From positions 715,229-747,228 of the forward strand of contig CAZKBG010000001.1 in assembly GCA_964551375.1 (NCBI GenBank): a stretch of 32,000 nucleotides of DNA, written 5' to 3'. Source of the stretch: an uncultured archaeon. GTDB taxonomy: Archaea; Iainarchaeota; Iainarchaeia; Iainarchaeales; JAAZKV01. Shown here piece by piece: positions 282 through 30,517 of the stretch (position 1 is the first letter of the stretch; each line of letters opens with the position of its first letter). The notes below the pieces were generated by a model that worked only from the letters and a program-made list of their open reading frames with translations, searched no databases and had not been told where the DNA came from. Position numbers and translations under genes: made by a program.

Positions 282-1391
282 TCACTTAGCATAATTTAAT
301 TCAAATTCTTTTTTAAGCTTCTCAAAATTATTTTCTTTAATTGCAACGCGGATGTCTTTGATTAAATTTGCAATAAAAAAAGTATTATGATAACTTAACA
401 GCATCAAGCCGTTCTGCTCATAAGTTTTAAACAAATGATGAAGGTACGCACGGGAATGATTTTTGCAAACAAAACAATTACACTTTGAATCAAGCGGTTC
501 AAAAGATTCCTTATGAACTGCCCTGTCAATTTTAATCTGCCCTTTGTGAGTAAAAATCAAGCCATGCCGAGCCATTCTTGTCGGATAGGCTGAATCAAAA
601 ATATCCACTCCGCGCTCCACTAAATTTAAAATTTCAAGGGGAGAACCCACCCCCATTAAATACACAGGGAGGTTTTCGCTGATTATTTCTTTTGTGATTT
701 GCGTCATATCATACATGCTCTTTGGATTTTCACCAATGCACAACCCGCCGACTGCGATTCCGTCAAAACCAATTGCTTCAATGCTTACTGCTGATTTTTT
801 TCTCAAATCAGGAAATGTCCCCCCTTGGGTAATTCCAAACAACAGTTGATTTTTATTTTTGTGGGCTTCTTTACAGCGCAATGCCCATTCAGTAGTTCGA
901 ATCATTGCATCAAAATATTCCTCTCTTGATTTTCCAAAATGCACAAGGTGATCAAGACACATGGCAACATCACTGCCAAGCGAATTTTGAATCTGAACTG
1001 CGCGCTCAGGAGTAATTAATTCAACGCTTTTATCAAAAGGGTTCTTGAAATAAACCCCCTTATCTGTCAAGTGATCTACAAAAGTTTCCGACAAGAGCTG
1101 AAAGCCGCCCGAGTCAGTGAAGAGAGCGCCGTTCCAGCCGAAGAACTTATGCAAGCCATCTGCTTTTTTTACCAAATCAATTCCCGGCTTTAAATAATTT
1201 ACAAAAGCATTTGTAATCAAACAATTAACTCCCATATCCTTTTCAAGTTCAGGATGAGTCACAAACTTTACCGCGCCTTTTGTAGCAACAGGCATGAAAA
1301 AGGGAGTTTCTAATTTTTTATGATGAGTAAAAAGAATGCCCGCACGCGCGCTTGAATTTTTGGATTTAGTTGTAATTTCAAAGCAACTCAT
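282..1391 (-). CDS. tgt: tRNA-guanine transglycosylase, catalytic TIM-barrel domain only (archaeosine-TGT-like, no PUA/C-terminal domains)
   Basis: TGT motifs LFTDSGGFQ and DSAYPTR, plus the Zn site CNCFVCKNHSRAYLHHL. I place the start at ATG 1389-1391 (MSCFEITT...) because the tracked upstream extension overlaps the SRP RNA gene. Confidence 0.85.
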   Translation of the reverse strand: MSCFEITTKSKNSSARAGILFTHHKKLETPFFMPVATKGAVKFVTHPELEKDMGVNCLITNAFVNYLKPGIDLVKKADGLHKFFGWNGALFTDSGGFQLLSETFVDHLTDKGVYFKNPFDKSVELITPERAVQIQNSLGSDVAMCLDHLVHFGKSREEYFDAMIRTTEWALRCKEAHKNKNQLLFGITQGGTFPDLRKKSAVSIEAIGFDGIAVGGLCIGENPKSMYDMTQITKEIISENLPVYLMGVGSPLEILNLVERGVDIFDSAYPTRMARHGLIFTHKGQIKIDRAVHKESFEPLDSKCNCFVCKNHSRAYLHHLFKTYEQNGLMLLSYHNTFFIANLIKDIRVAIKENNFEKLKKEFELNYAK

Positions 1392-1414
1392 ACCAATTAC
1401 CCTAATAAGTAGTC

Positions 1415-1428
1415 TTTTAATTATTTCA
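1415..1428. promoter_or_regulatory. shared AT-rich TATA-like box between divergent tgt and SRP RNA genes
   Basis: cttttaattatttc lies about 25 nt upstream of the tgt ATG (minus strand). It also lies about 20-30 nt upstream of the inferred SRP RNA 5' end (plus strand). Confidence 0.4.
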
Positions 1429-1440
1429 AACCACAGATAT

Positions 1441-1713
1441 TTCGGACTAGACTGGGCCGCTAGCGGTGGCTTGTAACCGGAAATCCGCTTTATGCCGGGG
1501 TTGAAGCTGGGGAAGAGGTTCGTAAGCTCTGCAGACACCATGCTGTTAGCGTCGAAGCTCTGTCCTTACAGGTGTTTTTTTAAAATGAACTCCGCCAGGG
1601 CAGGAATGCAGCAACGGTAGTTTTAGAAGAAGACGCTGAAGGGAAACGGAGTGGAGTTAGCGGTATGAAATGCCTGCAATGCCTGAAAAATCCATTTTCC
1701 AGCACGTCCTTTT
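1441..1713 (+). ncRNA. signal recognition particle RNA (archaeal 7S type)
   Basis: This is a GC-rich island in AT-rich DNA. The Alu-domain-like segment GGGCCGCTAGCGGTGGCTTGTAACCGGAAATCCGC..ATGCCGGGG is present. The helix-8 signature CGCCAGGGCAGGAATGCAGCAACGGTAG (1593-1620) has a GGAA tetraloop flanked by AGG and AGCA loops. The 5' GGAC..CTGG can pair with the 3' CCAGCACGTCC, and a T5 run follows. The ends are approximate. Confidence 0.8.
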
Positions 1714-1848: not shown

Positions 1849-2022
1849 ATGGTTTTCGAGAAAAAAATGTCTGTCAAAGACCTTATTGAACAAATGCGGG
1901 AAGAACTGCGAAACGAGCAGGAACAAAAAGAAACGTCACAAAAACCTGCAAAGAAGGGCAAAGCAAAGCCTAAGAAAGCTAAAAAGGCAAAAGCTAAGCC
2001 AAAAAAGAAAAAGAAGAAGTAA
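1849..2022 (+). CDS. small protein (57 aa) with helical acidic N-terminus and poly-lysine tail
   Basis: My translation: MVFEKKMSVKDLIEQMREELRNEQEQKETSQKPAKKGKAKPKKAKKAKAKPKKKKKK. It is below the track's length cut-off. A TATA-like ttttatttaattaat lies at 1821-1835 and GGGGT lies 5 nt before the ATG. The tracked antisense ORF 1827..2027 is its low-complexity mirror. Confidence 0.5.
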   Translation: MVFEKKMSVKDLIEQMREELRNEQEQKETSQKPAKKGKAKPKKAKKAKAKPKKKKKK

Positions 2023-2023
2023 A

Positions 2024-2329
2024 TCACTTTGTTAAAGATTCCTTCTTTTTAATTTCCTTCTCAAGCGTCTTAAGAACACGCTGAACAACTTCTAAAAGCT
2101 GCCAATCAGTGTGCTCTGCAAAAAAAGTACCCCTTCCAAGAACTGCTTTTGCATGAATTTCATGCTGGGCGCGCAAGCCCCCTTTCTTATACTGTTTAAG
2201 CGAAAGCTGCAACTCCACATCAGGACCCACTTTTTTTACAAAATGAGCAATAGCCTTGTTAAACAATTCCAAGTCAACTTCATCAAGCTCAGGGAACTTA
2301 ACTAATTTTACATTTGCCGGAACATCCAT
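2024..2329 (-). CDS. HPF/RaiA (ribosomal S30AE)-like small protein, putative ribosome hibernation factor
   Basis: The 101-aa protein shows a beta-alpha-beta-beta-beta-alpha pattern that aligns by eye with E. coli HPF/YfiA. VELQLSLKQYKK..QHEIHAKAVLGRGTFFAEHTD..WQLLEVVQRVLKTLEKEIKKK matches VYVVLKVEK..ATLHVNGGEIHASAEG..MYAAIDGLIDKLARQLTKHK. There is no HMM confirmation. Confidence 0.5.
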   Translation of the reverse strand: MDVPANVKLVKFPELDEVDLELFNKAIAHFVKKVGPDVELQLSLKQYKKGGLRAQHEIHAKAVLGRGTFFAEHTDWQLLEVVQRVLKTLEKEIKKKESLTK

Positions 2330-2478
2330 AAAAACACCACATCCAAAAAAGATAGAACTCTTAATAAAATTAGTTCAATTAGTTTAAAAAAAGATTGAAA
2401 AGCCAAACAAAACGCGCAAAAAAAGTGAAAACTGCCCGCGCCAGAAAGGTATTTAGTTATTACAACACAGCATATATT

Positions 2479-4245
2479 ATGCAAAACTGCCCGAAAGAAT
2501 ACTCTAAACTTGCAAATACCGCAGTCAACCTTGCAAAAGAAAAGGGAGTAAAAAACTCCACGCTTGAAAGGACTTGGAGAGTCGCCATGGATTTGTGCGA
2601 TAAACAACTCCCTATTTCAGCAATCATTGCGGAAATAATAAAAGAAATCCCTCAAGAAAATATTTCTGAAGAAGAACTAATCAAACTATTTGGAAAAGAA
2701 GCGGTTGATATTTCAAATTATGTCAGACAGCTTAATTCAGTAATACAAAGCAATTACTTAAGAGTGCCTACTGAAACGCTGAATTCAATAATTCTTTCCA
2801 TACCAAAGGACTTTCAGCCGATAATTTTAATGATTGCTGATGTAAGCGACATGCTTGAATATAATGACAAAAGCGGGCTTGAGAAAAATTTTGCAAAAAA
2901 AGCTGAAGAAATATGGTTTCCGCTCGCAACAAAACTTGGGCTTAGCAACTACGCATGGAAACTACAGGATTACAGTTTTAGAGCAATAAACCCTGAAGGA
3001 TACGCTAAAGTCAATATGCTTGTGAATAAAGACAGAAAAGCAAGAGAACAATTAATTAAAGATGTCATAAACGAAATGCAAAAACTTTTAGCCGGAAAAA
3101 TGAAAGCAAGGATTATGGGAAGGCCAAAAACACTCAAATCAATTCATGACAAGATGAAAAAAAAACCGTTCTCAAACATACATGATATTTACGGAATAAG
3201 AATAATCTGCGACAAAGAAAAAGAATGCTACGAAGCTTTGGGATATGCGCACTCAAAATATGAAATCATACCAGAATCTTTTGATGATTATATTACAAAG
3301 CCCTGGGCTGACGGATACCAGAGCATACATACCGCTGTGCGAAGAGGAGAAGATATTATTGAAATACAAATACGAACATGGACGCACCACTTGCGTTCAA
3401 TCTCTGATAGGTACTGGAATTACAAAAAAATAATGAAAGACAAGGAATTTGAGAAAGAACTAAGCTGGGAAAGACAGCTCTTAGAGTGGCAGAAGAACGA
3501 ATCAGGAACTGGCTTAGGGAAAAAAATCAGCGGACAAAAAATATTTGCGTTTACTCCTAAAAATGAAGTAATTGCGATGCCAAACGGAGCGACAGTGGTT
3601 GATTTTGCATTTGCAGTGCACACGGATATTGGCAAAAACATGGAAGGGGCAAAAGTCAACGGCAAAGTTGTCCCAATTGAAACTAAGCTCAAAAACTTGG
3701 ACAGAGTTGAAATTATAACAAATCAAAAACCCCAGATGAAGAAAAACTGGATAGGGTTTGTAATAACAGAAAAAGCAAAACAAAAAATCAAATCAGTATT
3801 CGGGCTTAAGAGCATAAAAAAACCCGCTGCGCAAATAGGAATAAATGACATTAAAAAAATAAAAATGGCAGAATGCTGCAACCCGCTCCCGGGAGAAGAC
3901 GTAATAGGAGTAAAAACCACAAAAAGAAAAATAATAGTGCACAAAAAAGACTGCCCAAATATAAAAAAGATGGATAAATCCAAATTAATTGAAATAGGAT
4001 TTGAAAGAGACAAAGGAAAAACACAAATAAGAGTGAACGTGCTTGACAGGCCAGGAATACTTCCCGAAATACTTGACGAAATTAAAAAAGGTGGCGCAAC
4101 TTTAATCAACACAAATTTCAAAATAAAGAAAACTGGATATGCTGAAGCAATATTTGGGATTGAAATATCAAGCGCCTCAAAACTTGACAAGTTAATTGAA
4201 AGAATTGAACAAATTCCGGGCGTTATGGGCGCTGAAAGACTGTAA
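2479..4245 (+). CDS. long RelA/SpoT homologue: (p)ppGpp synthetase with degenerate HD domain, TGS, conserved-Cys and ACT domains
   Basis: Synthetase motifs GRPKTLKSIHDKM, DIYGIRIIC, DGYQSIHT and EIQIRT. TGS domain IFAFTPKNEVIAMPNGATVVDFAFAVHTDIG. Conserved-Cys segment CCNPLPGEDVIG..HKKDCPN. ACT domain IRVNVLDRPGILPEILDEI. The HD position reads IIAEIIKEIPQENISEEELIKLFG, with no His-Asp. The tracked TTG start at 2395 is unlikely. ATG 2479 sits about 20-30 nt after the TATA-like tatttagttattac. Confidence 0.85.
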   Translation: MQNCPKEYSKLANTAVNLAKEKGVKNSTLERTWRVAMDLCDKQLPISAIIAEIIKEIPQENISEEELIKLFGKEAVDISNYVRQLNSVIQSNYLRVPTETLNSIILSIPKDFQPIILMIADVSDMLEYNDKSGLEKNFAKKAEEIWFPLATKLGLSNYAWKLQDYSFRAINPEGYAKVNMLVNKDRKAREQLIKDVINEMQKLLAGKMKARIMGRPKTLKSIHDKMKKKPFSNIHDIYGIRIICDKEKECYEALGYAHSKYEIIPESFDDYITKPWADGYQSIHTAVRRGEDIIEIQIRTWTHHLRSISDRYWNYKKIMKDKEFEKELSWERQLLEWQKNESGTGLGKKISGQKIFAFTPKNEVIAMPNGATVVDFAFAVHTDIGKNMEGAKVNGKVVPIETKLKNLDRVEIITNQKPQMKKNWIGFVITEKAKQKIKSVFGLKSIKKPAAQIGINDIKKIKMAECCNPLPGEDVIGVKTTKRKIIVHKKDCPNIKKMDKSKLIEIGFERDKGKTQIRVNVLDRPGILPEILDEIKKGGATLINTNFKIKKTGYAEAIFGIEISSASKLDKLIERIEQIPGVMGAERL

Positions 4246-5603: not shown

Positions 5604-6338
5604 TCAAACATTGTAGTCTTCTTCAACCTTATGAACCTTAATCCCGTCATCAGAAATCTGAATCGGGTGCAAATCTTCGCTGTGCTTAGTCGCGCGCATT
5701 TTTCTAATATGAAGAGTACGATTGCTCTGAGTGCCAAGCCCCATATAATGCAGCACCACAACACCGTCTGCAACAAATTCTTCAACACCATACTTGCCAA
5801 TCTGCTTTGAGTCTTCATTAATTTCAGTAGTGAAGACTGTTGTAACACCGGCTCTCGAAAGAAGATAAACAATCTTTAAAACAGCCTTTCTAATCTCGTG
5901 CTCAGAGTCAAAATTCAAGCCAAGCGCAGGAATTGAATCAATAACAACCCTCTTAGCTTTGATTTTCTTAATAGCACGCATTAATTCAAGCAAAAGCTTG
6001 TCAAGATCAAACCCAGTGGCTGGGAGAGAGAATTCTTCATCACTTGGAATTCCAAGCTTAGCCATTGTTCCGTCAACAATTCTAATCATCCCCGCATCTT
6101 CATACTGGCGCAAATTCCAGCCGAACCTCAACATATCTTCCCTAATCAAGTCAGGGCGCTCATCAAGAGTAAGATAAACTCCCGGCTCGTTTAATTTAAC
6201 TCCGGAAACCAAATACTGCATCGCAAAAATAGTTTTGCCTGTCCCTGTTCCGCCTGAAATCAAAAAGCTTCTTCCTTCAGGCAGCCCGCCTTCAACCAGT
6301 TCGTCAAAACCGCCAATTCCAGTCTTAATACGATTCAT
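5604..6338 (-). CDS. single-domain KaiC-like RecA-superfamily ATPase (COG0467-type)
   Basis: IKTGIGGFDELVEGGLPEGRSFLISGGTGTGKT (Walker A), RVVIDS (Walker B), and a KaiC/RadA-like layout over 244 aa. Confidence 0.8.
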   Translation of the reverse strand: MNRIKTGIGGFDELVEGGLPEGRSFLISGGTGTGKTIFAMQYLVSGVKLNEPGVYLTLDERPDLIREDMLRFGWNLRQYEDAGMIRIVDGTMAKLGIPSDEEFSLPATGFDLDKLLLELMRAIKKIKAKRVVIDSIPALGLNFDSEHEIRKAVLKIVYLLSRAGVTTVFTTEINEDSKQIGKYGVEEFVADGVVVLHYMGLGTQSNRTLHIRKMRATKHSEDLHPIQISDDGIKVHKVEEDYNV

Positions 6339-6435: not shown

Positions 6436-6509
6436 TGGTTTAATTAAAGAACTAAAAAACACTAAAAATACTAAAAAAAGCAAATTAACCAAAAAAAAGA
6501 AAAAAGAAG

Positions 6510-6583
6510 TGGGACTGGAGAGATTTGAACCCTCGACACCACGGTCTTCAGCCGTGTGCTCTCCCAGGCTGAGCTACAGTCCC
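6510..6583 (-). tRNA. tRNA-Phe (GAA)
   Basis: Reverse complement GGGACTGTAGCTCAGCCTGGGAGAGCACACGGCTGAAGACCGTGGTGTCGAGGGTTCAAATCTCTCCAGTCCCA folds as a cloverleaf. The anticodon loop is CT-GAA-GA. No encoded CCA. Confidence 0.9.
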
Positions 6584-6642
6584 AGACTCCTTAAAATAAA
6601 TAGCTACCCAAAGGTTTTTAATAATCGCTAAAACAACAAAAA

Positions 6643-7011
6643 TTACAACATTTTATTGATTTTTGAAACAGAGACAACAATTGCTGATTTTGCAGGCAGC
6701 CCCTTATTTTCAGGAATTGTTTTAATCAAATCAAAATACTTTCCTGACTTTTGGACTGACGCTGTTCCAAGCAGCTCAAATCCTTTCCCATCTGTGGTGA
6801 AAAATGAAACCGCAACTTTTGGATTAGATTCAATATTTTTAACCGTTGAACGCATGTAATTATTAGTAATTACTAAATTATCCCCGTCAACTCTTGCAAA
6901 AGCAACATAAATAATATGTGGAGAAGCATCTTTGCCAACTGTCGCAAAAGACAACGTGCTTGATTCAATTAATTTTTTTAATTCAAGAGACACTAAAGCC
7001 AACAAAATCAC
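6643..7011 (-). CDS. pyridoxamine 5'-phosphate oxidase-like FMN-binding (split-barrel) family protein
   Basis: STLSFATVGKDASPHIIYVAFARVDGDNLVITNNYMRSTVKNIESNPKVAVSF fits the PNPOx-like pattern. There is no ATG, so the start is GTG or TTG and the exact position is uncertain. Confidence 0.65.
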   Translation of the reverse strand: MILLALVSLELKKLIESSTLSFATVGKDASPHIIYVAFARVDGDNLVITNNYMRSTVKNIESNPKVAVSFFTTDGKGFELLGTASVQKSGKYFDLIKTIPENKGLPAKSAIVVSVSKINKML

Positions 7012-7041
7012 TAATAAAATTATAACAAAACAAAATAAAAA

Positions 7042-7054
7042 GCGAGCCCGTAGG
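7042..7054 (-). repeat. 13-nt duplicate of the tRNA-Lys 3' end (GCGAGCCCGTAGG)
   Basis: Exact match to 7124-7136, the 3' acceptor/T-arm end of tRNA-Lys(CUU), located 83 bp away. No cloverleaf is attached to it. Confidence 0.6.
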
Positions 7055-7124
7055 AAACTAACACCGCAACCCCTTTAGAAAAGGTGTTGCATCCCCAAAA
7101 TAAAAATTAAACAAAAAAAATAAG

Positions 7125-7197
7125 CGAGCCCGTAGGGAATCGAACCCTAGACACCCAGATTAAGAGTCTGGTGCTCTACCAACTGAGCTACGGGCCC
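7125..7197 (-). tRNA. tRNA-Lys (CUU)
   Basis: Reverse complement GGGCCCGTAGCTCAGTTGGTAGAGCACCAGACTCTTAATCTGGGTGTCTAGGGTTCGATTCCCTACGGGCTCG. The anticodon loop is CT-CTT-AA. Confidence 0.9.
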
Positions 7198-7284
7198 GTA
7201 GCATTACTAATCATGCGCGTAATTACCACGCGCTTTTCAAACGCACTGGCGCAGAAATTAAATTAAACCAACTATTAAATGAAA

Positions 7285-17513: not shown

Positions 17514-17587
17514 CAATTTTCTGATTTTTTGAGCTTTATGGAATATTTTAAAGCTTATTCAAGCACAACCTAATGTAGTGTTTGGGC

Positions 17588-18760
17588 ATGAAAGCAATAT
17601 TTAATGTATTATTTTTAGTAACTTTAATCTCTTTAGCCCTCAGCGCATTTGCATATGAAGTGCCACTGTCAGAATTTGGGTTCACAGAAATATCTAATAC
17701 TACTAATTTTACAAAATCATGCAAAGAACTAACCCTTGAAGTTCCGCAAGACATACTTTCATCAGAAGGCGGAGCGCCAATTTTATCCTTAAACGCAAAT
17801 TTCTTTAACTATTCAAGCGACACAAGCTATGTTTCCGTTTCAATCAATAATTCAGAAGAAAATGTAATCTGGCCAGAAAGCTTTTCATGCACAGACAGCT
17901 GCTTTGCAAGAATATTTTTGCCAGAGCTTGAAAAAGGAGCTACTCAAGTTAATATTTGCACAATTCTTGGCGGAAAAACAGATGGAATTGAGGTACTTGA
18001 AAACTCAAAAATAGGTTTATACAACACTCCAGTTCTAACAATAAAAAATTCAGCCCCTGGGGTAGTATACCTTGGAGACAGGGCAAAAATGACAACAACA
18101 GTTACAAATGAAGGAACAAAAGCATCAATGATAAGAGTTCAATTCATACATCCAGACACAAGAGCGGCAGTTAATATCACAAGCTTTGACATTGTTGATG
18201 GAGAAAGCTATGCAGTAACAACAATTTCCCCAGGCGAAACCAAAAACTTTGTTTACTACATCAAGCCAACAGTGCTTGGATTATACAACCTGCCTTCAGC
18301 AGCAATGTTTTTCAAAAACGTGTTCGGAGAAAACCAGTTTATGATAAGCAATCACCCAATGATGTCAGTTCAAACAAGAAAACAAATCGAAGTATCCCTA
18401 ATAGCGATAAACGACAGCGAGCCAAGAACATTCAAAGCAATAATAAAAAACAACCTTGACCAAGCATTCAGCGGATTTATTACAGTTTCGCCGCAGACAA
18501 GCATTCAAGAAGCAATGCAGGAAGTAGAAGTTCCGGCAAACAGCGAAAAAGAATTGATTTTCCAATCTGATTTATTAGAGCAAGGGGACTATGAATTCTT
18601 TGCAACAATAAGAGACACAAATAATATTTACTCATCAAACAAGATTTCAGTGCAAGTGCAGAACAACTCGCTTCCAATCCAAATGATTCTTGCAATAGTT
18701 GGAATAATCGCAGGCGCGCTAATCTTCGCATGGATATATTTCTTAAGTGAAGGGAAATAA
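17588..18760 (+). CDS. secreted surface protein with CARDB-like module and C-terminal TM anchor
   Basis: Signal peptide MKAIFNVLFLVTLISLALSAFA, the module TTTVTNEGTKASMIRVQF, and the C-terminal segment LPIQMILAIVGIIAGALIFAWIYFL. Confidence 0.65.
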   Translation: MKAIFNVLFLVTLISLALSAFAYEVPLSEFGFTEISNTTNFTKSCKELTLEVPQDILSSEGGAPILSLNANFFNYSSDTSYVSVSINNSEENVIWPESFSCTDSCFARIFLPELEKGATQVNICTILGGKTDGIEVLENSKIGLYNTPVLTIKNSAPGVVYLGDRAKMTTTVTNEGTKASMIRVQFIHPDTRAAVNITSFDIVDGESYAVTTISPGETKNFVYYIKPTVLGLYNLPSAAMFFKNVFGENQFMISNHPMMSVQTRKQIEVSLIAINDSEPRTFKAIIKNNLDQAFSGFITVSPQTSIQEAMQEVEVPANSEKELIFQSDLLEQGDYEFFATIRDTNNIYSSNKISVQVQNNSLPIQMILAIVGIIAGALIFAWIYFLSEGK

Positions 18761-18769
18761 TTTCTAATT

Positions 18770-21700
18770 TTATATTTTTTCCCATTCTTCAGTGAGCTTT
18801 TCTCGCTTGTCTTTTTTTATTCGCTCTCCTGAATTAAACTTTTGCAGCAAAACTACTGCCACAACAATTATCAGCGCTATTGGAATAAATCCGGAATAGG
18901 GGATTGACTCTGACAAAGGGGCTTTTGAATTTAATAAAAGAAATGCGTCCGTAAATTTGTTTGAATCAATAAGCTCTTTGCTTTTGCTCACAATAGACTT
19001 ATCTTTTTTTGAGTCAACCGCTGAATTGAAAGCGGTTATAGTCTGGCGTTTGATTGAGTCAAACGCCGTTAAAAGTTCATCTTTAATTGCAAAAACAGTT
19101 TGAAGTTTGACTGACAAGTTTAAATCTGACAACGCAAGTTCATTCAAATTAAATTTTAATTGTTTTAACCTCTTTTCAGTAATTGGCTGAATAAATTTTG
19201 CATTTATCAGTTCAGACTCTTTTCCATAAAGCAGTGTTTCAAGGTTTTGTATGAGTTTGTTGCTGTCAGAAAGGAGACTCTTAAACTTTTTTTCTTCTTC
19301 TGGGGAAAAAGAGCTGTCTGTTTCAAAGCTTTTTTCTTTTTCAATCAGGAATTTATCAAATAGTCCTAATAATTGTGAGTATATTGAATAAGCATCTTTT
19401 TGAGATTTAATTAAAGCAACATCAAATTCATTTTTCTTTTTAACAAAATCGTTGAAAGTAAGGATAAGCGAAGCGGATTTGGTTTCTTTCATTATTTTTT
19501 GCATAGTTGCATGCATTTGCAAAACCCTTTTTTGCATTTCTGCCAGAATCTTAGTTTTTATTCCTGCTTCTTCTTTTTGCAAAGTATTTAATTGCGCCAA
19601 GCTATAATTTTCAATTGCTCCTGAACTGACTAATTCATTTAGTTCTTTTATTCGCTTTACGTCTTCAATAAATCCGATTGTCTCAAGCAGATTAACATCC
19701 GAATATAATTGTTTAAGAGTTGTCTCAATATTATTTTGCAGCTGGTTGGCAGTCAATTCATTTAATACAGTCAGTTTTTGGTTTTCAATTAAATTATTGT
19801 TTGATTCAATCTTTTTTGCAATTTCAATTAAACTTTTATCAAAAATTAAACTAATGAATTCGTTTGTCTTTTCTCCTTCAATAAGCATATTCTGCTCGTA
19901 AAAAAAATCCCGTTGTCTTTCTAAAATCAATTTATATGCCTCTTTTGAATCACTAACTTCAAAAGAAAGGGTAAAATATTTTTTTTCCTTTGGCAGAAAA
20001 TGGCTATTTTCAATAAACAGTTTATTTGCAAGCCTCTTATTTTCAATTTGGTTGAACGAATCTGTTTGGAGGGAGATGTTTTCAGCAAATTCAAGCTCGT
20101 CAATTTCGAACAGCAAGTCAGCAGCAAGGCTTTCAGGAAAAGTGCTTTGGGCAGTCAGCTCAAAAGTATACTTATCAAATCCGCTGCCAGAATCAATTTT
20201 TATTAAATTTGAACTTGTTTGAATAATTCCTGTTGTAAAAAAAGTTGCATAAATTTTTTTCTTAGTATCAAGAAGGGCGGGGCCAATTTCTAAAGTTGAT
20301 TTATTGATTGAATATAGGATTTCTTCATGTTCGTAACTGACCGCAACTTTATTTGTCTTGGGCGGGATTATGGTTGTTATTATTGCTCTTGCAAAGATAT
20401 TTTCAGGAATAAAACTTATTGTTCGTTGAATTATGCTTTCGTTGTTTGTCACTTTGATAAGCTCATCGCCCTCAACTTGTATTAAATTTGACTTTATTTT
20501 TATTTTAAGCGCAGTTGGCCCCGGGTTTGCGCAAATAAACACAATTTTTTGTCTTGAGAAAGGATCCTGTTGAATGCAAGAATTGTCTTCAAGGTAGGTT
20601 AGGAGAAAATTTAAGTCAATTTCAAAATATGTGTCGCTGTTTTTAATTGGGTTTGTGAAATACAACAGCCCTTCTTGTTCAAATCCTTCGCTTTTTTTAA
20701 TTATTGTGTTTGTGTCAAGAAGTATTGTGTAATTTGATTTTATTATCTTGCTTACACATTTATCCAAGAATTCATTTACTGTGATATTTTGTTCTTGTAT
20801 TGATTTTAGCAAAGTTTCCTCAATTCCAAGAATGTTTTCAATAATTATTTTTCCATCTGGTGAAAAATAATCATTATATTTAGATATTTTTTTTAACTGT
20901 TCTTTTGTTTCTGTCAAAAGTCCAGCGCCGGAGATAACAACGATATTTTGATTTAGTATATTTTCTGATTCCTTAAGTTTTGTGAATTCAAATTCAAGCT
21001 CTTTAATTTCCTTATTTTCCCCAATTTGCGCTTTTGCTTGATTGCTGATGGAAAGGCAATAATTAATGGCCCAGGGCAAATTTAATTTTGTTATATTTGT
21101 TTCTTTCAATTGGCTGTATTGTTCGCGGAGTTCGGGCATATTTTTATAAGAAAGCATCTTTTCCAGATTTGTTAAGCACTCTTGCGCCAATATTTTTTGA
21201 GCGGCAAGATATTCATCGTAATTAGATATTGCTTTCTCAAGCTCAAGTTTTTTAGCGACAAATTTTGCGCAATAATAAAGCTTTTCTTCATTAAGCGAAT
21301 TTTTTGTTTTCTGGGCAAAATAATACGCTTCGTCAGCAAGATCGCCTAAGTGGAAGTCTTCATCAGCAACGGGGTTTTTGTAGTTGCTGGCAATTTGCTC
21401 GCACTTGTTATAAGTTTGATCAAGCGCGTTTTCATTTATTATATTAACTTCTGCTAAAAGCGAATTTTCCGCCGCAAGAAGGTTTTTAATTTCAAAAACT
21501 CTTTCCCCAATGCCAACATCTTCTTTAGCAATTTTTTCCTTTAATTTAGCTATGTTTGTGCCGATTTGCAGGAGCTTTGTTTGGGGAGTTTCCTCTATGG
21601 AAACTACTTTTCCAAAAAGCAAACTGTATAATTTTGCGTGTTGTTTTAATGAGTTATATTCAGCAACTTTTTTTGAGCAAGCAACATATTTTTGTTCAAT

Positions 21701-22633
21701 ATCCTGCATGCCTGTTAATGAATATTTTTTTGTTGTGTTAAAATTATTGCTGGTTTTATTCATCAAATCAGAAAAGCGCTTAATGGCTGAATTATTGTTT
21801 CCCCCAATGTTTGAGTAAAGTTTCATAAAGTCATTAATTGGAAAGTTTTGCAGATTTAGAAGAGTTTCTCTGGTAAAAAAAGCATTTTCAAAATATGCTG
21901 CTAGTGAGCCAAATATTTTGCTGCTTTGGAAGTACTCTCCAAGCGTGCTTTCTTTGTGGTCAAAAATTATTAGTTTATCAAGATATGCAAACCCGGCAAT
22001 CCAAACAGGTGCTTTTTCTGCAGCTATTGGAAATCCTTTGGCCGCAGACGACTTAGTAAATTCAATAACTTTATTTTGGTAGTACGAAAAATATGTGTTT
22101 GAGTTTGTTTCTCCGCTGTTGAGTTCTGATATTATTTGGCGAAATTCTATTAATGAATAATATAATTCATCTTCTTTGATTAATTCAATATTTTCTTCAG
22201 AAAGCATTTTTTCTTCAGCTTTGATTATTTCAAAACTCTTTTTCATTGAATAGTCGAGCTCAATCAGCGCCTGCTGCATGTAATACCTTGATTGATTTAA
22301 TGGGGTTGAAAGGCCTTTTGCATTCCCTGTCTGGCAAAGTTTTTGGATAGTTTCAGTTTCTTTTATTGCTTTATTATGGAAAAACCAGCTTCTCGCAAGG
22401 CTGTTTTTTAGATCATAAAGCAGGCTTTCTTGCTCATACCCTAACTGGGTTTTGAACATTTCACTTACTTTTTCATAACAACTGCTTTCAGTTTCGCAAT
22501 AAGGCACATATGAATAGCTTTGGGTAGCAAGGGTGAAACATAGATTTTTTTGTGAAGAAGTCATTTGCGTACAGCCAAGCAAAAGAAGCAAAAAGACTGT
22601 GATTGCTATGCTAACTAAACCAAAATGCTTCAT
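18770..22633 (-). CDS. giant (1287 aa) coiled-coil-rich surface protein with lipobox signal peptide and C-terminal TM anchor
   Basis: MKHFGLVSIAITVFLLLLLGC (LLGC lipobox), long heptad-like K/E/L/N-rich stretches, and the C-terminal segment FIPIALIIVVAVVLLQKF followed by a charged tail. Confidence 0.75.
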   Translation of the reverse strand: MKHFGLVSIAITVFLLLLLGCTQMTSSQKNLCFTLATQSYSYVPYCETESSCYEKVSEMFKTQLGYEQESLLYDLKNSLARSWFFHNKAIKETETIQKLCQTGNAKGLSTPLNQSRYYMQQALIELDYSMKKSFEIIKAEEKMLSEENIELIKEDELYYSLIEFRQIISELNSGETNSNTYFSYYQNKVIEFTKSSAAKGFPIAAEKAPVWIAGFAYLDKLIIFDHKESTLGEYFQSSKIFGSLAAYFENAFFTRETLLNLQNFPINDFMKLYSNIGGNNNSAIKRFSDLMNKTSNNFNTTKKYSLTGMQDIEQKYVACSKKVAEYNSLKQHAKLYSLLFGKVVSIEETPQTKLLQIGTNIAKLKEKIAKEDVGIGERVFEIKNLLAAENSLLAEVNIINENALDQTYNKCEQIASNYKNPVADEDFHLGDLADEAYYFAQKTKNSLNEEKLYYCAKFVAKKLELEKAISNYDEYLAAQKILAQECLTNLEKMLSYKNMPELREQYSQLKETNITKLNLPWAINYCLSISNQAKAQIGENKEIKELEFEFTKLKESENILNQNIVVISGAGLLTETKEQLKKISKYNDYFSPDGKIIIENILGIEETLLKSIQEQNITVNEFLDKCVSKIIKSNYTILLDTNTIIKKSEGFEQEGLLYFTNPIKNSDTYFEIDLNFLLTYLEDNSCIQQDPFSRQKIVFICANPGPTALKIKIKSNLIQVEGDELIKVTNNESIIQRTISFIPENIFARAIITTIIPPKTNKVAVSYEHEEILYSINKSTLEIGPALLDTKKKIYATFFTTGIIQTSSNLIKIDSGSGFDKYTFELTAQSTFPESLAADLLFEIDELEFAENISLQTDSFNQIENKRLANKLFIENSHFLPKEKKYFTLSFEVSDSKEAYKLILERQRDFFYEQNMLIEGEKTNEFISLIFDKSLIEIAKKIESNNNLIENQKLTVLNELTANQLQNNIETTLKQLYSDVNLLETIGFIEDVKRIKELNELVSSGAIENYSLAQLNTLQKEEAGIKTKILAEMQKRVLQMHATMQKIMKETKSASLILTFNDFVKKKNEFDVALIKSQKDAYSIYSQLLGLFDKFLIEKEKSFETDSSFSPEEEKKFKSLLSDSNKLIQNLETLLYGKESELINAKFIQPITEKRLKQLKFNLNELALSDLNLSVKLQTVFAIKDELLTAFDSIKRQTITAFNSAVDSKKDKSIVSKSKELIDSNKFTDAFLLLNSKAPLSESIPYSGFIPIALIIVVAVVLLQKFNSGERIKKDKREKLTEEWEKI

Positions 22634-28660: not shown

Positions 28661-29989
28661 TTACCATGTTTCTTCTTCAAGAATAACTGTTTTCTTCAGC
28701 ACTTTTTCAGAGAAAATCTTAATCTTGTTCAAGTCATTTTCAATTTCAGCCTTAATTGCCGATTCCTTTTTTTCAATAGTCTCAATATTATCCTTAATTT
28801 CATCAATTTCTTTTCCAATCTCGCTTAATTTGCCTTCTTCAACACTTAACTTCTTTTTCGCCTCGTTTTTTTCAATCAATTTATTCATTTCAATTTGCTT
28901 TCTCTGAATCTCATTCATCTTCCAAAACACAGAGCCGAAGAAATCAAAATTAATTATTTCCTGAAGAGCCAAAAGCCTTTTTTCTTTTTCCCTTTCCTTA
29001 AGCTCAATAGCCCCTTCTTCAATTGCCTTAATTATTTCCACAAGAACTTTTTTGAAAATATCCGCTTTAGGGTCTTTTTTTAACGCAGCCATCGGATTAG
29101 TCACAAACAAATTAAGCATTTCCTTTTCTTCAGTCGGAATTTTCCATCTTCCTGAATCAACAAGCTGCTTAAACCTCTGAAGAGGCCTGTCAATATTTAA
29201 TAAAAGCGCGCTGATTTCAGTTTTAAGATCCTGTTTCTGGCTCATAAGCGCAGTCATTTCCTCTTCAAGCTTAGAATAAGCGCCCATCTCTTCCCCTGAT
29301 TTAAAACCGCCAACTTTATTTTCCTGCCCCACAGCGTTTGCCTCTTTGCCGCTCAACTCTTCATTAAATCTTTTTTTATCTTCCATGAGCTTATTAAATT
29401 CTTTTTTCTTTCTAAGCACAACTCCAACGCTTTCTTTTGTTTTTTCAAAATCAAAAAGCTCTCCTGATTTTTTATAAGCCTCGTTTAATTCATGCAGGGA
29501 ATTAAGCATCTCCTGCAAGGATTCTCCAAGCCCCTTCATTTCATCTTTAAAATAAAAACTTGTGTAAGCAATATTTTTTCTAAATGAAACAAGTTCAGTC
29601 GCAAGAAGAGAATAACTCTCTCCGCAGTAATGCCTTGCATCAGCAAGCGTTTTTCCCCTGTCAAGAGGATTGACTTTTTGCAAAAGTTTTCTAAGCTGGG
29701 TGACAATCTGATTTTTAGCAGTAAGCGCGGCTTTATTCAATCTCTCATTAGGCTTTCCTTCAAGCTCTTTTGAATCAATATCGTTAACAATTCCAACCGC
29801 CCTGCTATGAACATACTTTAATTCAGAAAGTTTTTTCGCAGTCAATTCCTCAAGCTCTTCTTTTTGAAGCAAAAAACTTTTTTCAATAAGCATAGGGATA
29901 TTTTCAACAGAAGTTCTAATCACAGGAGTCTCTTTTTTAAAAGCGCCCGTAAAAAGCGAAATGAGTTTAGCAAAGAAACTAAAAACCAT
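28661..29989 (-). CDS. hypothetical coiled-coil protein (442 aa)
   Basis: ORF track. Amphipathic N-terminus MVFSFFAKLISLFTGAF, then long charged heptad-like regions. A hairpin ttttgagc..gctcaaaa follows the stop. Confidence 0.6.
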   Translation of the reverse strand: MVFSFFAKLISLFTGAFKKETPVIRTSVENIPMLIEKSFLLQKEELEELTAKKLSELKYVHSRAVGIVNDIDSKELEGKPNERLNKAALTAKNQIVTQLRKLLQKVNPLDRGKTLADARHYCGESYSLLATELVSFRKNIAYTSFYFKDEMKGLGESLQEMLNSLHELNEAYKKSGELFDFEKTKESVGVVLRKKKEFNKLMEDKKRFNEELSGKEANAVGQENKVGGFKSGEEMGAYSKLEEEMTALMSQKQDLKTEISALLLNIDRPLQRFKQLVDSGRWKIPTEEKEMLNLFVTNPMAALKKDPKADIFKKVLVEIIKAIEEGAIELKEREKEKRLLALQEIINFDFFGSVFWKMNEIQRKQIEMNKLIEKNEAKKKLSVEEGKLSEIGKEIDEIKDNIETIEKKESAIKAEIENDLNKIKIFSEKVLKKTVILEEETW

Positions 29990-30036: not shown

Positions 30037-30429
30037 TCAGCTTCCAAAATACTGGCTTGAAGAAGGGTAGAAGCACTTTGGAACACAAACTGCAATGCAC
30101 ATTGTGCTTGAGCCTGAAGCTTTATCAAAATAATAAGGAATTAAATCAGAAAACCCAATGCTCTTAATCGGGCGCTTTGAGCAGGCAGAAGTGCAGGGCT
30201 CAAAACAACCTTCTTGCGAAATACATTTAGAATATATTGCATTAGTATTAGGGTCGGCATTTGAATCAGGAATAAATTTTTCATTCTGCATGCATCCGGC
30301 ATATACTGAATTATAATAATTGTAATAATCTTTTTCAAGGGAAAAATTTGTTGAATAAAATCCCGCAGCATAAATAACAGCAATTATTACAATTGCAACA
30401 AAAAGAATTCCAATTATTTTGCCATTCAT
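30037..30429 (-). CDS. membrane-anchored Cys-rich extracellular protein
   Basis: MNGKIIGILFVAIVIIAVIYAAGF anchor and 10 Cys in the ectodomain. The start is trimmed to ATG 30427-30429. Confidence 0.55.
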   Translation of the reverse strand: MNGKIIGILFVAIVIIAVIYAAGFYSTNFSLEKDYYNYYNSVYAGCMQNEKFIPDSNADPNTNAIYSKCISQEGCFEPCTSACSKRPIKSIGFSDLIPYYFDKASGSSTMCIAVCVPKCFYPSSSQYFGS

Positions 30430-30517
30430 AGTTAATACACCCAGTTCAAATATATTAATCTTGGTTTTTCTTCCGGCAGGACGCATAAAGAAGCTTTAAA
30501 TTATACGCTTAGGGAAG

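What the first reader, a model, noticed from the sequence alone, without database searches (positions are those of the whole stretch)
2024..4245. Bacterial-type long RelA/SpoT homologue with a dead hydrolase domain, divergently paired with an HPF/RaiA-like protein in an archaeal genome
The 589-616 aa ORF has the full long-RSH architecture: pseudo-HD, synthetase, TGS, conserved-Cys and ACT domains. The synthetase motifs look intact (GRPKTLKSIHDKM, DIYGIRI, GYQSIHT, EIQIRT). The HD segment aligns but lacks the His/Asp residues (KEIPQE where LHDvvEDT is expected), which is a RelA-like synthetase-only state. Long RSH enzymes are a bacterial/plastid hallmark and are generally absent from archaea. 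About 150 bp away on the opposite strand is a 101-aa protein whose secondary-structure pattern matches the HPF/YfiA ribosome-hibernation fold, another family not considered typical of archaea. In bacteria the alarmone and HPF act in the same starvation response. A divergent pair sharing one promoter region therefore suggests a horizontally acquired stringent-response/ribosome-hibernation module in a reduced archaeon.
Basis: partly seen in the sequence, partly recalled or inferred. Interest (0 to 1): 0.7.

Follow-up and report, generated by a model that had tools for sequence, protein, structure and literature searches.

The report
Archaeal ppGpp synthetase beside hibernation factor
A small-genome (DPANN, Iainarchaeota-type) archaeon carries a bacterial-derived, hydrolase-dead alarmone synthetase next to a short ribosome-hibernation protein; both identifications hold, but both gene families were already reported in these archaea, and the pairing looks like inherited gene order, not an imported two-gene module.

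Summary
Gene 2479-4245 (+) encodes a 588-aa long RelA/SpoT homologue. Its synthetase residues are invariant, its HD motifs are destroyed (KE for HD), and TGS, zinc-finger and ACT/RRM domains are present. Gene 2024-2329 (-), 149 bp away, encodes a 101-aa protein whose confident AlphaFold model matches only HPF/YfiA/pY structures in its top 34 PDB hits. The contig is archaeal (archaeal SRP RNA, aTrm56, TFE) and of Iainarchaeota/Diapherotrites type.

- The HPF belongs to the archaeal HibA lineage. Its relatives are C-terminal domains of ~370-aa CBS-HPF proteins, and one sits at the same locus in a distant relative. It was therefore not co-imported with the RSH.
- The pair sits in a collinear block (TGT, K-rich ORF, HPF, RSH, CARDB, KaiC, Trm56, TFE). 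Other genes intervene in some relatives. The three most divergent RSH loci have no HPF within 10 kb.
- RelA/SpoT in 69% of Diapherotrites (2021) and standalone HPF in DPANN (2026) are already published.

Apparently new: every sampled archaeal member lacks about 90 aa of the alpha-helical domain and has a dead hydrolase, and they form one clade against the sampled Clostridia-type Rel. Interest is moderate.

The parts
2479..4245 (+). Long RelA/SpoT homologue, 588 aa from the ATG (the ORF extends upstream to TTG 2395). Predicted monofunctional (p)ppGpp synthetase, type [hS].
   Evidence: (P0001 is 100% identical at 588 aa).
2479..3093 (+). Pseudo-hydrolase (HD-fold) domain, aa 1-205. K55-E56 (nt 2641-2646) replace the His-Asp of HDxxED.
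   Evidence: HD_4 at 26.8 bits. All-helical with pLDDT about 90. Motif table against bacterial Rel.
3094..3513 (+). Synthetase domain, aa about 206-345. It holds the G214-R-P-K loop, D236, R241, Y280, H284, E295, Q297 and an xFDD triad.
   Evidence: RelA_SpoT 4.4e-27. Invariant columns. G214 aligns with RelA G251 and D236 with RelA D275. Motif table.
3538..3738 (+). TGS domain, aa about 354-420. Invariant H381 aligns with E. coli RelA H432.
   Evidence: TGS 3.6e-18. Alignment. Invariance.
3739..3855 (+). Remnant of the alpha-helical domain (two short helices) plus a disordered linker, aa 421-459. About 90 aa are missing relative to bacterial Rel/RelA.
   Evidence: Query 442-462 corresponds to RelA 497-608. 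The distance from TGS start to the CC motif is 108-116 aa in archaeal proteins and 191-205 aa in bacterial ones. pLDDT is below 50 for aa 445-458.
3856..3978 (+). Zinc-finger / ribosome-intersubunit (ZFD/RIS) domain. C466, C467, H488 and C492 are invariant.
   Evidence: RelA_AH_RIS matches profile positions 90-181 of 185 only. PF28438 RelA_RIS is precomputed for the homologues. C466/C467/C492 align with RelA C612/C613/C638.
4015..4245 (+). ACT/RRM domain, aa 513-588.
   Evidence: ACT_4 2.3e-12. Beta-alpha-beta-beta-alpha-beta in the AF2 model.
2330..2478 (.). 149-bp AT-rich divergent intergenic region. By eye it has separate TATA-like boxes for each gene and a GGTG-type SD before the HPF start. 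Relatives have 80-150 bp here.
   Evidence: Reading by eye only; no archaeal promoter tool was available.
2024..2329 (-). Standalone HPF/RaiA-like ribosome hibernation factor, 101 aa, of the archaeal HibA-C-terminal type without the CBS module.
   Evidence: AF2 pLDDT 88.8. Foldseek top 34 hits are all HPF/YfiA/pY. The family alignment has an invariant K.Y.KGGL..QHE.H hairpin. Profile hits go to CBS-HPF proteins.

Best explanation
The window is a chromosomal segment of an Iainarchaeota/Diapherotrites-type DPANN archaeon.

Gene 2479-4245 encodes a member of an archaeal clade of long RSH enzymes that descends from a bacterial bifunctional Rel. In every sampled member of this clade the hydrolase catalytic motifs have decayed and about 90 aa of the alpha-helical domain are deleted. 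The synthetase active site, the TGS histidine that reads the tRNA CCA end in RelA, the zinc finger and the ACT/RRM domain are all kept. The most likely function (inferred, not shown) is a RelA-like, synthetase-only (p)ppGpp synthetase. It would be activated on the ribosome by deacylated tRNA, with alarmone removal left to an unidentified non-RSH hydrolase.

Gene 2024-2329 encodes a short HPF/RaiA-like hibernation factor. It is derived from the archaeal CBS-HPF protein HibA/AHA by loss of the CBS sensor module. It most likely blocks the decoding site and mRNA channel of the small subunit (inferred from HibA and HPF structures).

The two genes are neighbours because of conserved gene order in this lineage. 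A regulatory link between them is possible but is not shown by the genomic evidence.
For: Archaeal identity. Homologue names are archaeon, Diapherotrites or Iainarchaeum.

RSH domains and residues. The AF2 model has pLDDT 82.7, and its top Foldseek hits are RelA on the ribosome, B. subtilis Rel and full-length SpoT.

HD decay: seen in all 27 archaeal sequences, against intact motifs in all 16 bacterial ones.

AH deletion: shared by all archaeal members.

Phylogeny: the archaeal/bacterial split has 100/100 NJ bootstrap support. The nearest sampled bacteria are Caloramator, Thermaerobacter, Ruminiclostridium and Dethiobacteria Rel at 40-45% identity.

Charge triad: RFKD in 13 of 16 sampled bacterial Rel (QFND or EFKD in the rest), xFDD in the window clade.

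HPF fold and lineage. L007 carries a 377-aa CBS-HPF at the syntenic position.

Synteny: 23 of 31 HPF-anchored metagenome loci have the RSH directly adjacent, and 3 more have it about 1.4 kb away. The other 5 have under 1 kb of upstream sequence. The whole block from TGT to TFE is collinear.

Literature: PMC8407392, PMC13324472, PMC12934967.
Against: - No biochemical data exist for any archaeal long RSH.
- Loss of the AH domain could prevent RelA-like docking on the ribosome.
- A synthetase with no hydrolase is toxic in bacteria, and no alternative hydrolase was identified in the 32-kb window.
- TIGR00691 and the RelA/SpoT equivalog models score below their cutoffs.
- The donor inference rests on an NJ tree with a biased bacterial sample.
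Confidence: 0.7

Rival explanations
1. In-situ functional coupling. After the RSH was acquired next to the HibA/HPF gene, the alarmone came to control hibernation, either through transcription from the shared intergenic region or through direct action on the ribosome or HPF. This would replace the AMP-sensing CBS module lost from HibA.
For: - The divergent pair is kept in nearly all loci of the window clade down to 44% HPF identity.
- An HPF-domain gene lies within 0-2 genes of the RSH in all 8 independent Iainarchaeal loci first examined.
- In bacteria ppGpp induces hibernation factors (cited in PMC12934967).
- The standalone HPF has no sensor domain.
Against: - Unrelated neighbours (TGT, KaiC, Trm56, TFE) are equally collinear.
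- AdoHcy hydrolase, TIM or CorA are inserted between the two genes in some lineages.
- L007 has both an RSH and a full CBS-HPF, so CBS loss does not track RSH presence.
- The A3 clade has an RSH but no HPF within 10 kb.
- Each gene appears to have its own TATA-like box.
Confidence: 0.2
2. A two-gene bacterial stringent-response/hibernation module was acquired together by horizontal transfer and is driven from one shared promoter region.
For: The genes are divergently adjacent with a 149-bp spacer. The RSH is of bacterial ancestry (PMC8407392).
Against: - The HPF is closest to archaeal CBS-HPF C-terminal domains.
- It scores below the threshold of the bacterial-trained Pfam model.
- A full HibA occupies the same locus in L007.
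- No bacterial flanking genes are present.
- The pair is separable.
Confidence: 0.05
3. The RSH is no longer a (p)ppGpp synthetase. It would be a repurposed ribosome- or tRNA-binding regulator, or it makes a different nucleotide such as (pp)pApp.
For: - Both the hydrolase and the AH domain are lost.
- The protein scores below the NCBIfam family cutoffs.
- No partner hydrolase was seen in the window.
- Alarmones have not been detected in the archaea studied (PMC10249747).
Against: Every synthetase catalytic and substrate-binding residue is invariant from 30 to 100% identity. This includes the guanine-stacking Tyr (Y280), the Mg-binding Asp (D236) and the catalytic Glu (E295). That pattern argues for retained GTP/GDP pyrophosphokinase chemistry.
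Confidence: 0.1

Closest known systems
E. coli RelA (monofunctional long RSH, [hS])
   Same: - Best PDB sequence hit (5iqr, E 4.8e-76).
- Catalytically dead HD-fold N-terminal domain.
- Intact synthetase and an acidic xFDD triad resembling RelA's EFDD.
- TGS His (H381 aligns with RelA H432).
- Zinc-finger Cys residues aligning with RelA C612, C613 and C638.
- C-terminal ACT/RRM domain.
   Different: - Not an orthologue. The NF008124 equivalog scores 279 bits against a 728 cutoff.
- The nearest bacterial relatives are Clostridia-type bifunctional Rel, so hydrolase loss was independent.
- About 90 aa of the AH domain are absent.
- The protein is 588 aa rather than 744 aa.
- The host ribosome is archaeal.
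Bacterial bifunctional Rel (e.g. Caloramator or Thermaerobacter Rel; B. subtilis Rel 6yxa)
   Same: Likely ancestor type. Identity is 40-45% to the most bacteria-like archaeal member, with the same domain order.
   Different: Bacterial Rel keeps HxGQxR..HP, HDxxED and DRLHN, mostly an RFKD triad, and a full AH domain. The archaeal clade has lost all of these.
RelA/SpoT genes reported in DPANN genomes (Li et al. 2021, PMC8407392)
   Same: Same gene family and same taxon. That survey found RelA/SpoT in 69% of Diapherotrites and predicted a bacterial origin.
   Different: The main text devotes two sentences to it, from an eggNOG/KEGG annotation survey, with an unread supplementary figure (S34). 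In the passages retrieved there is no domain or active-site analysis, no note of the hydrolase decay or AH deletion, and no gene context.
Archaeal HibA / AHA (CBS-HPF hibernation factors) and their standalone 'HPF/RaiA-like' derivatives (PMC13324472, PMC12934967)
   Same: - The 101-aa protein is homologous to the C-terminal HPF domain of 355-390-aa CBS proteins.
[quoted passage not shown]
- It matches the published class of standalone HPF/RaiA-like proteins found 'mostly in DPANN and Nitrososphaerales' and said to arise by loss of the CBS module.
   Different: It lacks the CBS (AMP-binding) module. It sits next to an RSH gene, a context the retrieved passages of those papers do not mention. 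One of them states that the ppGpp system is absent from archaea.
Bacterial short HPF / YfiA (RaiA) / plastid pY
   Same: Same fold and size. Foldseek E 4e-6 to 1e-3 and TM 0.6-0.74 to 34 solved structures.
   Different: Sequence identity is only 10-19%. The protein scores below the Pfam gathering threshold and has no NCBIfam hit. It carries a lineage-specific invariant hairpin, K.Y.KGGL..QHE.H.

Membership tests
Long RSH (RelA/SpoT homologue superfamily) | Synthetase domain (PF04607) above the family threshold | tested here: met
   95 bits against a 27-bit cutoff, E 4.4e-27.
Long RSH (RelA/SpoT homologue superfamily) | Synthetase catalytic and substrate-binding residues (G-loop GRxK, Mg-binding Asp, guanine-stacking Tyr, catalytic Glu/Gln) | tested here: met
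   R215, K217, K225, D236, R241, Y280, H284, E295 and Q297 are invariant in 46 sequences. G214 is nearly invariant. G214 and D236 align with RelA G251 and D275.
Long RSH (RelA/SpoT homologue superfamily) | N-terminal HD-fold domain | tested here: met
   HD_4 scores 26.8 bits, 0.4 below its cutoff. The AF2 helical domain has pLDDT about 90 and aligns to the Rel N-terminal domain structures 1vj7, 6s2u and 8acu.
Long RSH (RelA/SpoT homologue superfamily) | Hydrolase catalytic motifs (HxGQxR..HP, HDxxED, DRLHN), needed for the bifunctional [HS] state | tested here: not met
   KE replaces HD, PQ replaces ED, and the other motifs are absent. No archaeal member keeps ED. The protein is therefore [hS].
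Long RSH (RelA/SpoT homologue superfamily) | C-terminal regulatory region: TGS, AH, ZFD/RIS and ACT/RRM | tested here: inconclusive
   TGS, ZFD and ACT are present. Most of the AH domain is deleted, about 90 aa.
Long RSH (RelA/SpoT homologue superfamily) | NCBIfam TIGR00691 spoT_relA trusted cutoff | tested here: not met
   367 bits against a 499-bit cutoff, although E is 1.4e-109.
Long RSH (RelA/SpoT homologue superfamily) | (p)ppGpp synthesis activity | not testable with these tools
   Needs an enzyme assay.
RelA subgroup (beta/gamma-proteobacterial paralogue) | Orthology to E. coli RelA | tested here: not met
   NF008124 scores 279 against a 728 cutoff. The archaeal clade groups apart from the sampled Clostridia-type Rel, which are its nearest hits. 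It works like RelA but is not a RelA.
HPF/RaiA (Ribosomal_S30AE, PF02482) | Pfam gathering threshold | tested here: not met
   16.7 bits against 23.7. Twelve of 19 family members give weak hits, best E 0.002.
HPF/RaiA (Ribosomal_S30AE, PF02482) | [quoted passage not shown] | tested here: met
   AF2 pLDDT 88.8. The top 34 PDB hits are all HPF/YfiA/pY, with E down to 4e-6 and TM 0.55-0.74.
HPF/RaiA (Ribosomal_S30AE, PF02482) | Binding to the small-subunit decoding region | not testable with these tools
   Needs binding assays or cryo-EM.
Archaeal HibA/AHA | HPF/RaiA-like domain homologous to the HibA C-terminus | tested here: met
   The profile of the 101-aa family hits the C-terminal 90-100 aa of many 355-390-aa proteins, with E down to 1e-12. 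These proteins carry 2-4 CBS repeats. The L007 377-aa protein is one example.
Archaeal HibA/AHA | N-terminal four-CBS module | tested here: not met
   The protein is only 101 aa and a single domain. It belongs to the published 'standalone HPF/RaiA-like' class, not to HibA proper.

The most novel reading that the evidence does not exclude
Iainarchaeota, and related DPANN labelled Micrarchaeota, run a genuine ribosome-dependent stringent response. An AH-less, hydrolase-dead Rel descendant would dock on an archaeal ribosome, read deacylated tRNA through its TGS domain, and make (p)ppGpp. The alarmone would then drive hibernation through the neighbouring sensor-less HPF, replacing the AMP-sensing CBS module of HibA. 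This would be the first alarmone pathway shown in Archaea and a natural case of a bacterial ribosome sensor re-fitted to an archaeal ribosome.
Probability: 0.15. Interest if true: 0.8.

Novelty: new variant of a known kind. Interest (0 to 1): 0.45.

Why it matters
Reviews of archaeal signalling still state that (p)ppGpp has not been described in archaea and plays no important role there (PMC10249747). A 2026 archaeal hibernation preprint says the stringent-response system is absent from archaea (PMC12934967). Against that background, this is a large clade under purifying selection. It has well over 100 sequence clusters at 33-100% identity, invariant synthetase residues, and invariant tRNA- and ribosome-contact residues. 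That suggests some DPANN archaea do make the alarmone.

The proteins are small enough to express. The question 'does any archaeon have a ppGpp-based stringent response, and can a bacterial stringent factor work on an archaeal ribosome?' therefore becomes directly testable.

The value is limited in three ways. The gene's presence in these taxa was already published. The hosts are uncultured. The attractive RSH-HPF link is not supported beyond shared synteny.

Tried and rejected
- The genome-contig scan with the RSH protein returned only one locus (L004).
- The profile of the 101-aa family against PDB sequences gave nothing significant (best E 0.046, to an unrelated bromodomain; RaiA 8rd8_D at E 0.87). 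Sequence alone does not establish HPF membership. The fold search and the profile search against 1.8 billion proteins did.
- A broad 31-sequence HPF alignment (A4) was too divergent for the search for related loci. A narrower one (A5) worked, but it reaches only the window clade.
- The listing of cluster members did not reveal organism names for the divergent RSH clades. The taxonomy of clade A3 therefore rests on a few NCBI 'Micrarchaeota' labels.
- The sigma-70 promoter/terminator scanner was not used because the organism is archaeal. The promoter reading of the intergenic region is by eye only.
- Considered and rejected: a chimeric or bacterial contig; an RSH pseudogene or relic (invariant active site); a dsRBD-like fold for the small protein (dsRBD hits appear only after 34 HPF hits and at E above 0.01).
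- I looked for a ppGpp hydrolase substitute in the window (SAH, Nudix, GppA) and found none among ORFs of at least 110 aa. A NUDIX gene lies about 5 kb from the RSH in L008 and L009 only.
Full report

Yes. The ORF listing gives a + strand ORF at 2395-4245 (616 aa from TTG; ATG at 2479 gives 588 aa). It also gives a - strand ORF at 2024-2329 (101 aa). The 588-aa form is identical to a database protein called on a 946-kb contig (P0001). The spacer between the two start codons is 149 bp.

Pfam finds RelA_SpoT (4.4e-27), TGS (3.6e-18) and ACT_4 (2.3e-12). HD_4 scores 26.8 bits, 0.4 bits under its threshold. TIGR00691 spoT_relA gives E 1.4e-109 but stays below its trusted cutoff.

**2. Is the contig archaeal?**

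Yes, and it is not chimeric.
- Rfam finds an archaeal SRP RNA at 1440-1713 (120 bits).
- Neighbouring genes include archaeosine-type TGT, a KaiC-like ATPase, aTrm56, TFE-alpha, geranylgeranyl reductase, a class III (archaeal pilin) signal peptide, NFACT and a DHH-CID nuclease.
- GC is uniform at 33-40%.
- Homologues that carry a name are labelled archaeon, Candidatus Diapherotrites or Candidatus Iainarchaeum. That genus belongs to the phylum Iainarchaeota in the DPANN kingdom Nanobdellati.
- The same gene order recurs in dozens of independent assemblies.

**3. Anatomy of the RSH**

*Synthetase.* In a 46-sequence alignment spanning 30-100% identity and including five bacterial Rel, the synthetase residues are invariant: R215, K217, K225, D236, R241, Y280, H284, E295, Q297 and R299. 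G214 is nearly invariant. In the HMMER alignment to E. coli RelA, G214 and D236 fall on RelA G251 and D275.

*C-terminal domains.* TGS H381 falls on RelA H432. From my own knowledge, that is the residue contacting the tRNA 3' CCA end. Zinc-finger C466, C467 and C492 fall on RelA C612, C613 and C638. All of these are invariant.

*Hydrolase.* This domain is dead. Against 16 bacterial Rel that all carry HxGQxR..HP, HDxxED and DRLHN, the window protein has none of these motifs; K55-E56 replace His-Asp. None of 27 archaeal homologues keeps the ED pair. Decay is graded, from LLHD/LLHN in distant clades to KE in the window clade.

*Charge triad.* It is RFKD in 13 of the 16 sampled bacterial Rel and xFDD in the window clade, approaching the EFDD of RelA.

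The stretch from the start of TGS to the zinc-finger CC motif is 108-116 aa in all archaeal members and 191-205 aa in bacterial Rel. Query residues 442-462 stand opposite RelA 497-608. Most of the alpha-helical (AH) domain is therefore deleted.

*Structure.* AlphaFold (46-sequence alignment, pLDDT 82.7) shows a well-folded helical pseudo-HD, then the synthetase, TGS, two short helices and a disordered linker, then the zinc finger and ACT/RRM. Foldseek's best PDB matches are ribosome-bound RelA, B. subtilis Rel and full-length SpoT.

**4. Origin and spread of the RSH**

The family is large. More than 100 clusters at 35-100% identity were listed with the window protein as query.

Searching with the most divergent member (P0116) finds further short (606-626 aa) archaeal forms, some labelled Micrarchaeota. 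It then finds 700-750-aa bacterial Rel at 40-45% identity: Caloramator, Thermaerobacter, Ruminiclostridium and Dethiobacteria.

A neighbour-joining tree of 27 archaeal and 16 bacterial sequences separates the two groups in 100 of 100 bootstraps. Together with the shared AH deletion and HD decay, this favours one acquisition of a bacterial Rel followed by diversification in DPANN. The caveat is that the method was NJ only and the bacterial sample was chosen by similarity.

**5. The 101-aa protein**

*Sequence searches.* Its Pfam Ribosomal_S30AE match is sub-threshold (E 0.013), and NCBIfam finds nothing. Twelve of 19 family members give the same weak hit. A profile search of PDB sequences is not significant.

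[quoted passage not shown] The top 34 Foldseek PDB hits are all HPF, YfiA/RaiA or plastid pY, with E down to 4e-6 and TM about 0.6-0.74.

*Lineage.* A profile search of 1.84 billion representatives finds 166 relatives. Many are 355-390-aa proteins matched only in their last ~100 residues. These carry 2-4 CBS repeats. That is the architecture of the archaeal hibernation factor HibA/AHA described in 2025-2026 (PMC13324472, PMC12934967).

Those papers already report standalone HPF/RaiA-like proteins in archaea. One finds them in 8% of genomes, 'mostly DPANN and Nitrososphaerales', nested within HibA clades and explained by loss of the CBS module. The 101-aa protein fits that class. It is an archaeal-lineage HPF, not a recent bacterial import.

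**6. Is the pair a module?**

*RSH-anchored loci.* I anchored on RSH homologues from 33 to 62% identity.
- The HPF gene is directly divergent-adjacent in L004, L005 and L006.
- It is separated by an AdoHcy hydrolase in L001.
- It is separated by TIM in L008 and L009.
- In L007 the equivalent gene is a full 377-aa CBS-HPF, separated from the RSH by TIM and CorA.
- In three loci of the most divergent clade (L010-L012) no HPF domain lies within 10 kb, even with a broadened profile.

*HPF-anchored loci.* A metagenome scan returned 31 loci at 44-82% HPF identity. Of these, 23 have the RSH directly adjacent, 3 have it about 1.4 kb away, and the other 5 have under 1 kb of upstream sequence.

*Background synteny.* The linkage is strong within the window clade, but the whole block is collinear there: TGT, a small Lys-rich ORF, HPF, RSH, a CARDB protein, KaiC-like ATPase, Trm56 and TFE-alpha. 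The unrelated housekeeping neighbours are conserved as well as the pair is. The most persistent neighbours of the RSH across all clades are the KaiC-like ATPase (11 of 11 loci) and TIM (6 of 11), not HPF.

*Intergenic region.* By eye the spacer has separate TATA-like boxes, and a conserved SD-like GGTG or GGAGG precedes the HPF start.

The genomic evidence is therefore explained by inherited gene order. It neither requires nor excludes co-regulation.

**7. What is already known**

- Atkinson et al. 2011 listed only small RSHs in archaea and named the lack of long RSHs as an archaeal trait (PMC3153485).
- Li et al. 2021 reported, in a brief passage of a DPANN survey, RelA/SpoT in 69% of Diapherotrites, 41.7% of Woesearchaeota, 21.3% of Pacearchaeota and 19% of Nanoarchaeota, with a predicted bacterial origin (PMC8407392).
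- A 2023 review says (p)ppGpp has not been described in archaea and was not detected in Haloferax or Sulfolobus (PMC10249747).
- The AHA preprint says the system is absent in archaea.
- Full-text searches combining ppGpp with DPANN taxon names found nothing beyond Li et al..

The headline claims, a long RSH in an archaeon and an HPF in an archaeon, are therefore not new. Four points appear to be undescribed in the searchable literature: the universal hydrolase decay, the AH deletion, the apparent single clade, and the gene context.

**8. Most likely mechanism**

*Shown:* the domain composition, the conserved active-site and contact residues, the folds, the synteny, and the separate ancestries of the two genes.

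*Inferred:*
- The RSH is a RelA-like, synthetase-only (p)ppGpp synthetase. I estimate it is active with probability about 0.7.
- It is probably triggered by deacylated tRNA on the ribosome, because the TGS His and the ZFD/RRM are under strict conservation (about 0.5).
- The missing AH domain implies a different docking geometry or a different autoinhibition mechanism.
- Alarmone degradation must rely on an unidentified enzyme.
- The 101-aa protein most likely occupies the decoding site and mRNA channel of the small subunit, as the HibA C-terminal domain and bacterial HPF do.
- A ppGpp-to-HPF regulatory link is plausible by analogy with bacteria but has no specific support here (about 0.2).

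**9. Verdict**

This is a new variant of a known kind: an AH-less, hydrolase-dead long RSH clade in DPANN archaea, next to a known class of standalone archaeal HPF. Interest is moderate, at 0.45.

Noticed in passing
window 1849-2022 (+): An uncalled 57-aa ORF lies tail-to-tail with the HPF gene. Its sequence is MVFEKKMSVKDLIEQMREELR... followed by a Lys/Ala/Pro-rich tail (KKAKKAKAKPKKKKKK). Orthologues with the same N-terminal motif and 60-126-aa K-rich tails occupy the same position next to the HPF or HibA gene in nearly all HPF-bearing loci (L001, L004-L009, L013-L038). They are absent from L010-L012. It has no Pfam hit. It could be an H1-like nucleic-acid- or ribosome-binding protein, and it is the HPF gene's tightest neighbour.
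   Followed up: partly
window 5604-6338 (-); L005-L012: A 244-aa single-domain KaiC-like ATPase (PF06745, 3.5e-74) lies within 0-2 genes downstream of the RSH in all 11 RSH-anchored archaeal loci. In the divergent clades it is immediately downstream on the same strand. It is 62-91% identical across loci. It is a more constant RSH neighbour than HPF.
   Followed up: partly
L007-L012 (upstream of RSH): Triose-phosphate isomerase is the divergent upstream neighbour of the RSH in the distant clades. It is absent from that position in the window clade. In L010-L012 a purine-biosynthesis cluster (guaA, purE, purC, purF, purB, purA) and class I LysRS lie 1-10 kb downstream of the RSH.
   Followed up: no
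window 1440-1713 (+) vs 282-1541 (-): The archaeal SRP RNA overlaps the first ~34 codons of the 419-aa TGT ORF. Homologues are 366-379 aa and the Pfam match starts at residue 64. The real TGT start is therefore probably M51 (nt 1391).
   Followed up: partly
window 18770-22633 (-): A 1287-aa ORF has no Pfam match at E below 0.001. Several other ORFs of 140-440 aa also have no match (9801-10235, 10525-11166, 13428-13991, 17582-18760, 28661-29989, 30037-30486).
   Followed up: no
window 12457-13386 (-): A tyrosine recombinase (Phage_integrase plus SAM-like N-terminal domain) is conserved at the same syntenic position in L005 and L006. It is therefore more likely the chromosomal XerA-type resolvase than a mobile-element integrase.
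   Followed up: partly
window 6509-7357 and 9344-9420: A tRNA cluster: Phe(GAA), Lys(CUU) and Lys(UUU) on the - strand, and Met(CAU) on the + strand.
   Followed up: no
L008 16976-17428 (-), L009 8314-8754 (-): A NUDIX hydrolase gene of about 150 aa lies about 5 kb downstream of the RSH in two distant loci. Nudix enzymes can degrade ppGpp in some bacteria (my own knowledge, and alluded to in PMC3153485). No equivalent was seen in the window.
   Followed up: no
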